Shown here in pieces: positions 26,704 to 27,179 of a DNA stretch of 64,000 nt (position 1 is its first letter; every line of letters begins with the position of its first letter). The stretch is from Escherichia coli. Lineage in GTDB: Bacteria > Pseudomonadota > Gammaproteobacteria > Enterobacterales > Enterobacteriaceae. The translations under genes and the position numbers were made by a program. Under the pieces are notes generated by a model that saw nothing but the letters and a program-made list of their open reading frames with translations, was not told the origin of the DNA and made no database searches. Location of the stretch: assembly GCF_017348835.2 (NCBI RefSeq), contig NZ_CP071375.1. One strand, given 5' to 3'.

Positions 26704-26867
26704 AGTAAGAAATTCCTCTTCGACTAAAAAAATCATAACTGGATGTTTATCCAGTCCTGATTATAATCAGAATTGCATTTTATGCAATGATATTGAGTTA
26801 TGTTGCAAATTATGAAATGATTATCCCGATCACGAACGCCAGTGCATCCAAAAACCTCATATGCAAA

Positions 26868-26907
26868 AGCCCGATAAGAACCCTCTGACCTTATCGGGCT
26901 TTTTTTG
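26868..26907 (+). terminator. Plus-strand intrinsic terminator (AGCCCGATAAG ... CTTATCGGGCT followed by TTTTTTT)
   Basis: 11-bp perfect stem with a U-run; no plus-strand CDS upstream, so it may end a small antisense or regulatory transcript. Confidence 0.55.
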
Positions 26908-26912
26908 GGCGC

Positions 26913-26935
26913 AAAAAAGCCGGATTGCTCCGGCT
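26913..26935 (-). terminator. Minus-strand intrinsic terminator after ORF 26955..27179
   Basis: Plus-strand sequence AAAAAAGCCGGATTGCTCCGGCT. Confidence 0.6.
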
Positions 26936-26954
26936 ATGTGTGCTGTGTGCTGGC

Positions 26955-27179
26955 TCAGTCTCTGATCTCTTTCAGAAATTCTATCAATGCATCTATCTGT
27001 TCAGGATTTACCGCCAGCATTTCACCGGATAGAGCACATCTCACAAAACCATGCTGATCCTTTTCAATCAGTGCGCCCGTCTCCAGGAATGCGCGGTAAT
27101 CATTGATGCTCATCGTCTCCATGTTGTCAGCATGGTATTTATCACGCTGTTTTAATATCTCATCAAATTTCATCGGCAT
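26955..27179 (-). CDS. Hypothetical protein (74 aa)
   Basis: ORF bounded by terminators on both sides. Confidence 0.4.
   Translation of the reverse strand: MPMKFDEILKQRDKYHADNMETMSINDYRAFLETGALIEKDQHGFVRCALSGEMLAVNPEQIDALIEFLKEIRD

What the first reader, a model, noticed from the sequence alone, without database searches (positions are those of the whole stretch)
26737..26955. Capsid-operon leader with three consecutive palindromes and convergent terminators
CTGGATGTTTATCCAG, CTGATTATAATCAG and ATTGCATTTTATGCAAT follow one another within ~50 bp upstream of the capsid operon. A plus-strand terminator (26868..26907) with no plus-strand gene upstream suggests a short antisense or regulatory RNA ending here.
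Basis: seen in the sequence. Interest (0 to 1): 0.45.

Follow-up and report, generated by a model that had tools for sequence, protein, structure and literature searches.

The report
SOS-box promoter of a satellite's capsid operon
The three palindromes are the control region of a four-gene capsid operon in an E. coli phage satellite (an EcCICFT073-type island): one is a binding site for the DNA-damage repressor LexA, one is the promoter's symmetric -10 box and one overlaps the -35 box, which predicts that DNA damage switches this operon on, as is already known for the analogous operon of staphylococcal satellites.

Summary
Three perfect palindromes lie at 26739-26788. A 14-bp-stem hairpin (26865-26903) faces a second terminator (26918-35). 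The cluster is unique in the window and absent from 60 simulations.

The region is the junction between the early module and the capsid module of an EcCICFT073-family phage-inducible chromosomal island.

- **Palindrome 1** (GACTGGATAAACATCCAGTT) is a LexA/SOS box. It has the arms of the K-12 ruvAB box and a heterology index of 7.2, second best of 128,000 positions. It is kept in every intact homologue, Salmonella-type ones included. One lineage breaks the hairpin yet moves closer to the LexA consensus.
- **Palindrome 2** carries TATAAT on both strands.
- **Palindrome 3** overlaps a TTGCAT -35 box, and its symmetry is only partly conserved.

Predicted mechanism: a sigma-70 promoter repressed by LexA across its start site. 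It is shielded from upstream read-through by two terminators and drives four genes (68-aa protein, capsid, decoration, 137-aa protein). Published CFT073 RNA-seq shows exactly these four genes changing together, without SOS induction, so a second input exists.

The plus-strand RNA idea is possible, given the symmetric -10 and the better U-tract on the plus strand, but nothing shows it. Verdict: new member of a known kind (compare LexA-controlled SaPI operon I). Moderate interest.

The parts
26914..26935 (-). Terminator 1. This intrinsic terminator ends the upstream 74-aa gene (AGCCGGAGCAATCCGGC + T6). It is one of three copies of the same terminator cassette in the island.
   Evidence: 7 pairs, 5 GC, loop 4, T-run. 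(cassette at 24578-99, 26914-35 and 27278-99; chance expectation 0.01).
26865..26907 (.). Terminator 2. This bidirectional hairpin (GCCCGATAAG / CTTATCGGGC, extended by A/U pairs) has T7 on the plus strand and TTTT on the minus strand. It marks the outer edge of the conserved capsid-module leader.
   Evidence: -21 to -22 kcal/mol in either direction. Homology to other islands ends just outside it. The stem is invariant and the loop variable among the 68 distinct leaders.
26823..26864 (-). Variable spacer between the hairpin and the promoter block.
   Evidence: Alignments A1 and A2 show two or three unrelated sequence versions here.
26801..26822 (-). The most conserved upstream block, AATCATTTCATAATTTGCAACA, at about -69 to -48 from the predicted start. 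It resembles palindrome 3 as a direct repeat 30 bp away. Its role is unknown (an activator, silencer or UP-like element is inferred).
   Evidence: (repeat D5).
26772..26788 (-). Palindrome 3, ATTGCAT-AAA-ATGCAAT. It holds the predicted -35 hexamer TTGCAT (26787-26782, minus strand).
   Evidence: Read from the sequence. The dyad is only partly conserved and changes are uncompensated.
26757..26770 (.). Palindrome 2, with core TGATTATAATCA. TATAAT is at 26765-26760 on the minus strand and at 26762-26767 on the plus strand, which makes a symmetric -10 region.
   Evidence: The core is invariant in every intact copy found by BLAST or by protein. It was deleted in the decayed SCU-171 copy.
26737..26756 (-). 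Palindrome 1 is a LexA (SOS) box, GACTGGATAAACATCCAGTT (CTG-N10-CAG). It covers about -3 to +17 of the predicted minus-strand start (~26753) and the -35 position of any plus-strand promoter.
26704..26736 (-). Remainder of the 5' leader, with SD AAGAGGA (26720-26714). The predicted second hairpin pairs the U-run with codons 3-6 and covers the SD and AUG.
   Evidence: -22.2 kcal/mol, z = -4.5. This comes from a single sequence only.
26497..26703 (-). First gene of the unit: a 68-aa protein (PHROG 3255, c1498 homologue) of unknown function.
24578..26497 (-). Rest of the transcription unit: the lambda gpE-like capsid gene (25442-26497), the gpD-like decoration gene (about 25031-25430, disrupted here), the 137-aa gene (24605-25018) and the closing terminator cassette (24578-24599).

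Best explanation
The region is the regulatory junction in front of the 'late' capsid module of an EcCICFT073-family phage-inducible chromosomal island.

Two tandem intrinsic terminators stop transcription coming from the early (AlpA/replication) genes. Downstream lies a sigma-70 promoter, TTGCAT-16 bp-TATAAT, with its predicted start near 26753 on the minus strand. Palindrome 1 is a LexA operator lying across that start site. LexA would therefore keep the four-gene unit (68-aa protein, capsid homologue, decoration homologue, 137-aa protein) low. DNA damage, the same signal that induces lambdoid helper prophages, would release it through RecA-stimulated LexA self-cleavage.

Palindrome 2 is palindromic because it carries the -10 hexamer on both strands. 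Palindrome 3 overlaps the -35 hexamer. Together with the conserved block 30 bp upstream, it probably receives a second, SOS-independent input.

What is shown and what is inferred:
- Shown: the sequence features, their conservation, the LexA-box score, and the co-regulated four-gene unit in CFT073.
- Inferred: LexA binding, the start site and SOS inducibility.
For: 1. Context. All island genes are on the minus strand. The neighbours are int, RgdR/DUF4222, RepA helicase, SSB, PerC-like, capsid E, decoration D, cos and Nu1/Rpp-like. The same leader sits in EcCICFT073 itself.

2. LexA box.
- The arms CTGGAT/ATCCAG are identical to the K-12 ruvAB box, read in NC_000913.
- A matrix of 16 K-12 boxes, each verified in fetched loci, gives a heterology index (HI) of 7.2. 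Real boxes score 0.8-10.8 when left out of the matrix.
- The site is second best of 127,962 positions in the window. The expectation is 0.005 such sites per 64 kb.

3. Conservation.
- HI is 4.9-9.6 in all intact homologues, including Salmonella-type ones.
- The right half-site, which was not part of the search pattern, is kept in 64-68 of 68 distinct IMG/VR leaders.
- The ATACAG variant lowers hairpin stability from -9.4 to -3.5 kcal/mol but improves HI to 4.9. This fits a protein site rather than an RNA hairpin.

4. Promoter. TATAAT is invariant, and a decayed copy has lost it.

5. Unit boundaries. In CFT073 shifted from 23 to 37 C, c1498-c1501 rise by 2.24, 2.05, 1.45 and 1.17 log2. The flanking ssb (0.24) and rppA (0.33) do not.

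6. Precedent. SaPI operon I, the packaging and capsid-remodelling operon, is LexA-regulated.
Against: - No binding or expression experiment links LexA to this promoter. The start site is predicted, not mapped.
- The box deviates from consensus at the same two positions as ruvAB (CTGG...CCAG), and ruvAB is induced only about 2-fold. Regulation could therefore be weak.
- In CFT073 the unit changes 2- to 4.7-fold (1.17-2.24 log2) with temperature while sulA, dinI and umuD do not move. LexA is therefore not the only input and does not silence the promoter fully.
- The -35 hexamer matches only 3 of 6 positions, and the tool's stricter scan did not call this promoter.
- The cf-PICI in Sakai, which shares the upstream gene, has no LexA box before its capsid operon.
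Confidence: 0.68

Rival explanations
1. A short plus-strand RNA of about 130 nt is made from the symmetric -10 box. It would start near 26774 and end at the hairpin's T7 run (26907). It would act as a regulatory or antisense RNA, for example against read-through transcripts from the early genes, or through the C-rich loop of its terminator hairpin. This does not exclude the LexA model: LexA on palindrome 1 would also cover this promoter's -35 position.
For: - TATAAT is present on both strands, with predicted divergent starts about 21 bp apart. Bidirectional promoters with a shared -10 are common in E. coli, with preferred spacings of 10, 18 and 23 bp.
- The plus-side U-tract is the better one: 7 versus 5 U in 8 nt in E. 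coli.
- The unrelated Salmonella-type hairpin at the same place has 10 versus 5 U downstream (16 nt counted on the antisense side, only 14 available on the sense side), also favouring that strand.
- The A/T run belongs to the conserved module even where the upstream module differs.
- The plus-strand fold has z = -3.2.
Against: - No Rfam family matches.
- The plus-strand -35 matches only 2-3 of 6 positions.
- The middle of the putative RNA (26823-26864) is the least conserved part of the leader.
- Palindrome 3 changes are uncompensated, and the terminator stem never varies, so there is no covariation.
- The hairpin is equally explained as a minus-strand terminator with an A-tract.
- No transcript data are available.
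Confidence: 0.12
2. The palindromes are operators for an island-encoded or nucleoid protein rather than LexA. Candidates are the 68-aa first gene product acting as a ribbon-helix-helix autorepressor, or PerC-like/H-NS-type control of an AT-rich promoter.
For: - Palindrome 3 and the upstream block form a 30-bp-spaced direct repeat that is conserved beyond what a -35 box needs.
- The unit responds to temperature without SOS.
- PerC genes often sit just upstream.
Against: - The 68-aa protein has no Pfam, NCBIfam or PDB sequence match, and there are no significant Foldseek hits.
- The three palindromes share no half-site.
- Some islands lack perC next to the leader.
- None of this accounts for the exact CTG-N10-CAG geometry or for the consensus-ward variant of palindrome 1.
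- This most likely describes the second input at palindrome 3, not a replacement for LexA at palindrome 1.
Confidence: 0.12
3. Palindrome 1 acts at the RNA level, either as a 5'-terminal stabilising stem-loop or as an attenuator (hairpin plus U-run) in the leader.
For: - The scan flags it as terminator-like.
- The hairpin is -9.4 kcal/mol and would sit at the very 5' end of the predicted mRNA.
Against: - The U-run starts 4-7 nt after the stem.
- No compensatory changes are seen.
- The L008-10 lineage and three of the 68 distinct IMG/VR leaders carry an uncompensated stem change that weakens the hairpin to -3.5 kcal/mol.
Confidence: 0.06

Closest known systems
SaPI operon I of Staphylococcus aureus pathogenicity islands (LexA-regulated packaging and capsid-remodelling operon; Ubeda et al. 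2007, as cited in PMC3152322)
   Same: Both are phage satellites whose morphogenesis module has its own promoter with a LexA operator, separate from the helper-induced early genes.
   Different: The host clade and LexA motif differ (E. coli CTG-N10-CAG). The gene content differs (lambda gpE/gpD homologues, with no terS in the unit). LexA control here is predicted, not shown. The operon has no known phenotype and can be replaced without losing transfer.
E. coli ruvAB SOS box (CGCTGGATATCTATCCAGCA)
   Same: The half-sites CTGGAT/ATCCAG and the 4-bp centre length are identical, and the heterology index is similar.
   Different: The flanks, the centre and the position relative to the promoter differ. 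ruvAB is a chromosomal repair operon.
Bidirectional promoters with a shared symmetric -10 element (Warman et al. 2021, cited in PMC12825309)
   Same: TATAAT is readable on both strands within a 12-bp palindrome, and the predicted divergent starts are about 21 bp apart.
   Different: Divergent transcription has not been observed here. The only candidate divergent product is a non-coding stretch ending at a hairpin.
tisB/istR-1 type SOS loci, where a LexA-controlled gene lies beside a divergent small RNA
   Same: A LexA box sits between a protein-coding unit and a possible divergent short RNA that has its own terminator.
   Different: There is no toxin, no sequence similarity, no Rfam match and no evidence that the RNA exists.

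Membership tests
LexA (SOS) box, E. coli type | Invariant CTG-N10-CAG | tested here: met
   GACTGGATAAACATCCAGTT at 26756-26737. The motif is defined in PMC11228462. It is kept in 67 of 68 distinct leaders.
LexA (SOS) box, E. coli type | Overall match to known boxes (heterology index in the range of functional sites) | tested here: met
   HI is 7.2 with a 16-site K-12 matrix that excludes ruvA. Real sites score 0.8-10.8 when left out of the matrix. The site is second best in the window, with 0.005 expected per 64 kb. This matrix is not the published one, so the values are not directly comparable with literature HI values.
LexA (SOS) box, E. coli type | Overlaps the promoter or start site of the regulated gene | tested here: inconclusive
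   The box covers -3 to +17 of a promoter predicted by eye (TTGCAT-16-TATAAT). The start site is not mapped, and the stricter scan did not call this promoter.
LexA (SOS) box, E. coli type | LexA binds, and expression rises on DNA damage in a lexA- and recA-dependent way | not testable with these tools
   No SOS transcriptome of a strain carrying this island was found.
Intrinsic (Rho-independent) terminator | GC-rich stem-loop immediately followed by a U-tract | tested here: met
   - Terminator 1.
- Terminator 2: a 10-bp GC-rich core extended to 14 bp, at -21 to -22 kcal/mol. It has 7 of 8 U on the plus strand and 5 of 8 U on the minus strand.
Bacterial small regulatory RNA | Own promoter, own terminator, conserved sequence or structure, and a detected transcript | tested here: inconclusive
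   A terminator is present. The -10 is perfect but the -35 is poor. There is no Rfam hit and no covariation, and the middle segment is variable. The transcript could not be tested.
EcCICFT073-family PICI (Gram-negative phage-inducible chromosomal island) | int, alpA, primase/rep, a cos site with an rpp/terS-like gene, a size of about 12-15 kb, and no lysis or tail genes | tested here: met
   The same leader and gene order occur in EcCICFT073 itself. Induction by a helper phage was not tested for this copy.
Ribbon-helix-helix DNA-binding protein (for the 68-aa product) | N-terminal beta-strand followed by two helices, forming a dimer, with similarity to known RHH folds | tested here: inconclusive
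   [not shown]

The most novel reading that the evidence does not exclude
The symmetric -10 box makes this a LexA-gated bidirectional promoter. On DNA damage it would fire both the capsid unit and a ~130-nt divergent RNA that ends at the conserved hairpin. That RNA, whose terminator loop is C/U-rich in every lineage (CCUCU/CCUCC), would act on the island's own transcripts. It could oppose read-through from the early operon or pair with Shine-Dalgarno sequences. That would give the satellite an RNA-level early/late switch.
Probability: 0.08. Interest if true: 0.6.

Novelty: new member of a known kind. Interest (0 to 1): 0.4.

Why it matters
Gram-negative PICIs are described as being switched on by helper-phage induction of alpA, independently of SOS (PMC6092414).

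A LexA box in front of the capsid-homologue unit would add a second, host-derived signal. That would mirror SaPI operon I and point to convergent logic in satellites of very different bacteria.

The prediction is cheap to test in EcCICFT073. It concerns four genes (c1498-c1501) with no reported phenotype (c1499 explicitly so). These genes are present in roughly one in seven complete E. coli genomes by leader match (771 of 5426), or about 8% (437) with most of the leader.

The work also fixes the boundaries of that transcription unit. It shows that island modules are joined at a reused terminator cassette, which bears on how these islands shuffle modules.

Tried and rejected
- Rfam at E <= 1 over 22-35 kb: nothing.
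- Phage collection, blastn with the leader: no match.
- Genome-contig scan with TGATTATAATCANNNCTGGAT: 11 hits, all in unrelated MAGs and about the number expected by chance. The representative genomes lack the island. This scan was wasted.
- Full-text search for the palindrome sequences: nothing relevant.
- Search for an SOS transcriptome of CFT073: none found.
- 68-aa protein: no result from Pfam, NCBIfam, PDB sequence search or Foldseek.
- cos site as the explanation for the palindromes: rejected, because cosN lies 2.2 kb away at 24532-24543.
- Readings considered by eye and dropped because they do not fit the conserved positions:
  - a sigma-54 promoter;
  - Fur box (the GATAAT part is not conserved);
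  - lambda CII TTGC-N6-TTGC;
  - P2 Ogr TGT-N12-ACA;
  - an IHF site.
- A 23-codon plus-strand ORF (26818-26889): rejected, because it has no SD and its frame is not conserved between variants.
- The scan's alternative promoter, TTCATA-18-TATCAT (26816-26787): its -10 is not conserved in the W24 or Salmonella-type leaders. It may still act as a second promoter in most E. coli copies.
- LexA box in the cf-PICI capsid leader of Sakai: none (best HI 19.8).

Full report
**What is there**

The window between about 22.1 and 33.9 kb is a phage satellite inserted in an E. coli chromosome, next to asr, ydgD and mdtIJ. All of its genes run on the minus strand. In order they are:
- integrase (32672-33901);
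- a DUF4222 protein with RGD at residues 20-22, the RgdR type of PMC3378721;
- RepA-family helicase;
- SSB;
- a PerC-like protein;
- a 74-aa protein;
- the region in question;
- a 68-aa protein;
- a lambda gpE-like major capsid protein;
- a gpD-like decoration protein;
- a 137-aa protein;
- an exact cosN 12-mer;
- a Nu1/Rpp-like small terminase homologue;
- a 93-aa protein.

This is the organisation of EcCICFT073 and EcCI042 (PMC6092414, PMC9026076). I fetched EcCICFT073 itself and it carries the same leader in front of c1498-c1501. The 351-bp query around the finding matches 771 of 5426 complete E. coli genomes, and 437 of them cover at least 80% of it.

**Checking the observation**

The three palindromes are at 26739-26754, 26757-26770 and 26772-26788. 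The hairpin has perfect 14-nt arms at 26865-26878 and 26890-26903. The facing terminator is at 26918-26935.

A cluster of three non-overlapping perfect palindromes within 55 bp occurs once in the window, and it is this one. None of 60 simulated windows had such a cluster. With the leader's own 34% GC composition the expectation is 0.0003 per 160 bp.

One correction: the gene immediately downstream is a 68-aa ORF whose stop overlaps the capsid start, not the capsid gene itself.

**Module structure**

In other islands the gene upstream of the leader varies. It can be the 74-aa gene, perC or ssb. Homology to the window always runs from the 68-aa gene to just past the hairpin's T-run, and then stops. 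The hairpin therefore belongs to the capsid module, and terminator 1 belongs to whatever lies upstream.

The terminator-1 sequence, AGCCGGAGnAATCCGGCTTTTT, occurs three times on the minus strand. It follows the PerC-like gene, the 74-aa gene and the 137-aa gene. The chance expectation is 0.01. The third copy closes the capsid unit before cos.

The O157 Sakai element at the same chromosomal site (Sp7/OI-51, a capsid-forming PICI) shares the 74-aa gene and terminator 1. It then continues with an unrelated leader.

**Palindrome 1 is a LexA box**

On the coding strand it reads GACTGGATAAACATCCAGTT, that is, CTG-N10-CAG. PMC11228462 gives this as the invariant core of the LexA consensus TACTG(TA)5CAGTA.

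Its half-sites CTGGAT/ATCCAG are those of the ruvAB box. I read that box in K-12 as CGCTGGATATCTATCCAGCA.

I recalled 17 classical K-12 LexA boxes and confirmed that each is present at its gene in fetched K-12 loci. I then built a Berg-von Hippel matrix from 16 of them, leaving ruvA out to avoid circularity.
- Palindrome 1 scores a heterology index (HI) of 7.2.
- Genuine boxes score 0.8-10.8 when left out of the matrix.
- It is the second-best site among 127,962 positions in the window.
- Simulated 64-kb windows contain 0.005 sites this good.

Homologous leaders score 4.9-9.6 in every intact copy. This includes the Salmonella-type lineage, which is only about 55% identical in the adjacent protein.

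I retrieved 92 IMG/VR contigs with a pattern covering palindrome 2 and the left half-site only. They gave 68 distinct leaders.
- The right half-site is complementary to the left in 64-68 of the 68.
- Three leaders carry ATACAG instead of ATCCAG.
- That change, also seen in loci L008-L010, breaks the hairpin (-9.4 to -3.5 kcal/mol) but moves the site towards the LexA consensus (HI 4.9).

This pattern is what a protein-binding site predicts and what an RNA hairpin does not.

**The promoter**

On the minus strand TATAAT lies at 26765-26760. TTGCAT lies 16 bp upstream, at 26787-26782, inside palindrome 3. The predicted start is near 26753, so the LexA box spans about -3 to +17.

The -35 box matches only 3 of 6 positions (the TTG), which is why the tool's stricter scan did not list this promoter. 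That scan lists TTCATA-18-TATCAT further upstream instead, but its -10 is not conserved in W24 or in Salmonella-type leaders.

The 12-bp core of palindrome 2 is invariant in all intact copies found by BLAST or through the protein. Its invariance in the IMG/VR set is circular, because that set was retrieved with it. A decayed copy with several frameshifted genes (SCU-171) has a 34-bp deletion that removes palindrome 1 and most of palindrome 2.

Palindrome 3 is a perfect 7-bp-arm dyad only in the window's lineage. Across leaders the sixth and seventh arm positions change without compensation. TTGC and AAAATGCAA stay fixed.

The most conserved piece of the whole leader is AATCATTTCATAATTTGCAACA at 26822-26801. 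It resembles palindrome 3 as a direct repeat 30 bp away. I could not assign a factor to these two elements.

**Experimental support for an autonomous unit**

In a published CFT073 transcriptome (23 to 37 C shift; PMC12890032, supplementary table) the log2 changes are:
- c1498: 2.24, c1499: 2.05, c1500: 1.45, c1501: 1.17, all significant;
- ssb: 0.24, primase: 0.31, c1503 (rppA): 0.33, c1505: 0.58, none significant.

The boundaries of the co-regulated block coincide with the leader and with the terminator cassette after the 137-aa gene.

In the same data sulA, dinI and umuD are unchanged. This response is therefore not SOS. The promoter has a second input, and LexA repression, if it occurs, is not complete.

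The block c1498-c1501 can be replaced by a reporter without abolishing transfer (PMC10460865). A c1499 replacement had no phenotype (PMC6092414).

**The hairpin and the plus-strand RNA idea**

The hairpin folds equally well in both directions, at -21.7 and -21.2 kcal/mol. It has 5 of 8 U after the stem on the minus strand and 7 of 8 on the plus strand.

Its stem is invariant and its loop variable among the 68 distinct leaders. The few stem changes are uncompensated.

The Salmonella-type lineage has an unrelated GC-rich hairpin in the same place. Its downstream tail is more U-rich on the strand equivalent to the window's plus strand: 10 U in 16 nt, against 5 U in the 14 nt available on the other side.

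Because TATAAT is present on both strands, a divergent start near 26774 is conceivable. Promoters with a shared symmetric -10 are common in E. coli (PMC12825309). A transcript from there to 26907 would be about 130 nt.

Against a functional small RNA:
- there is no Rfam match;
- the plus-strand -35 is poor;
- 26823-26864 is the least conserved part of the leader;
- there is no covariation;
- there are no transcript data.

The simplest reading is that the hairpin insulates the promoter from upstream read-through and, in the other direction, stops any divergent transcription from running antisense into the early genes.

**The 68-aa protein**

**Comparison and novelty**

The closest precedent is SaPI operon I, a LexA-regulated packaging and capsid-remodelling operon (Ubeda et al. 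2007, quoted in PMC3152322).

In the searchable library the three papers that mention both EcCICFT073 and LexA each hold LexA once. In the two I checked it occurs only in the reference list. PMC6092414 states that alpA induction is SOS-independent.

The prediction that the capsid-homologue unit of EcCICFT073-type islands carries an SOS box therefore appears unreported. It is a new instance of a known regulatory design, not a new kind of element.

**Limits**

LexA binding, the transcription start and SOS inducibility are inferred. My heterology indices come from my own 16-site matrix and are not comparable number for number with published values.

Noticed in passing
window 32513-32532 and 32624-32643 (int-alpA intergenic region); also L007 16261 and 16150 (Sakai Sp7): The best LexA-like site in the whole window is TAGTGTATAAAAAACCAGTA (HI 5.2). 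It has GTG in place of the invariant CTG. A second site, TACTGGATATGCGAACAGAT (HI 11, true CTG-N10-CAG), lies nearby. Both are upstream of alpA and are conserved in the Sakai cf-PICI. Published work says alpA induction is SOS-independent.
   Followed up: partly
window 24510-24575 (-) and 23634-23700 (+): There are two ~66-nt cos-like segments. Each has the exact cosN 12-mer GGGCGGCGACCT and they are largely identical over the aligned stretch. They lie in inverted orientation and flank the Nu1/Rpp-like gene.
   Followed up: partly
[not shown]
   Followed up: partly
window 24578-24599, 26914-26935, 27278-27299 (all minus strand): The same terminator cassette, AGCCGGAGnAATCCGGCTTTTT, closes three successive modules of the island. 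Module junctions between different islands fall at or next to these cassettes, so they may serve as recombination points.
   Followed up: partly
window 30624-30640 (+): TTTTCATAATCTGCAAC matches the leader's most conserved block with two mismatches. It is in the opposite orientation and inside an early-region ORF of the same island. I estimate roughly 0.01-0.03 such matches per window by chance.
   Followed up: no
window 26690-26733 (-): The 5' leader is predicted to fold so that its U-run pairs with codons 3-6. This would bury the Shine-Dalgarno sequence and the AUG of the 68-aa gene (-22.2 kcal/mol for the whole leader, z = -4.5). Conservation of this pairing was not examined.
   Followed up: no
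window 32575-32625 (-): Iteron-like repeats of CAACAATG / GAACAA units lie between the two LexA-like boxes upstream of alpA.
   Followed up: no
window 27306-27578 (-): The PerC-like protein also gives a sub-threshold match to the ANR (AraC negative regulator) family: NF033650, E = 3e-4, 20 bits against a cutoff of 32. This echoes the suggestion in PMC11773190 that PICI PerC-like proteins may act as repressors.
   Followed up: no
L029 (CFT073) 17463-19497, homologous to window 24605-26703: Published RNA-seq shows the four-gene capsid unit rising 2- to 4.7-fold (1.17-2.24 log2) on a 23 to 37 C shift, while the rest of the island and the SOS genes stay flat. This points to temperature-dependent control of this AT-rich promoter, possibly H-NS-type.
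   Followed up: partly
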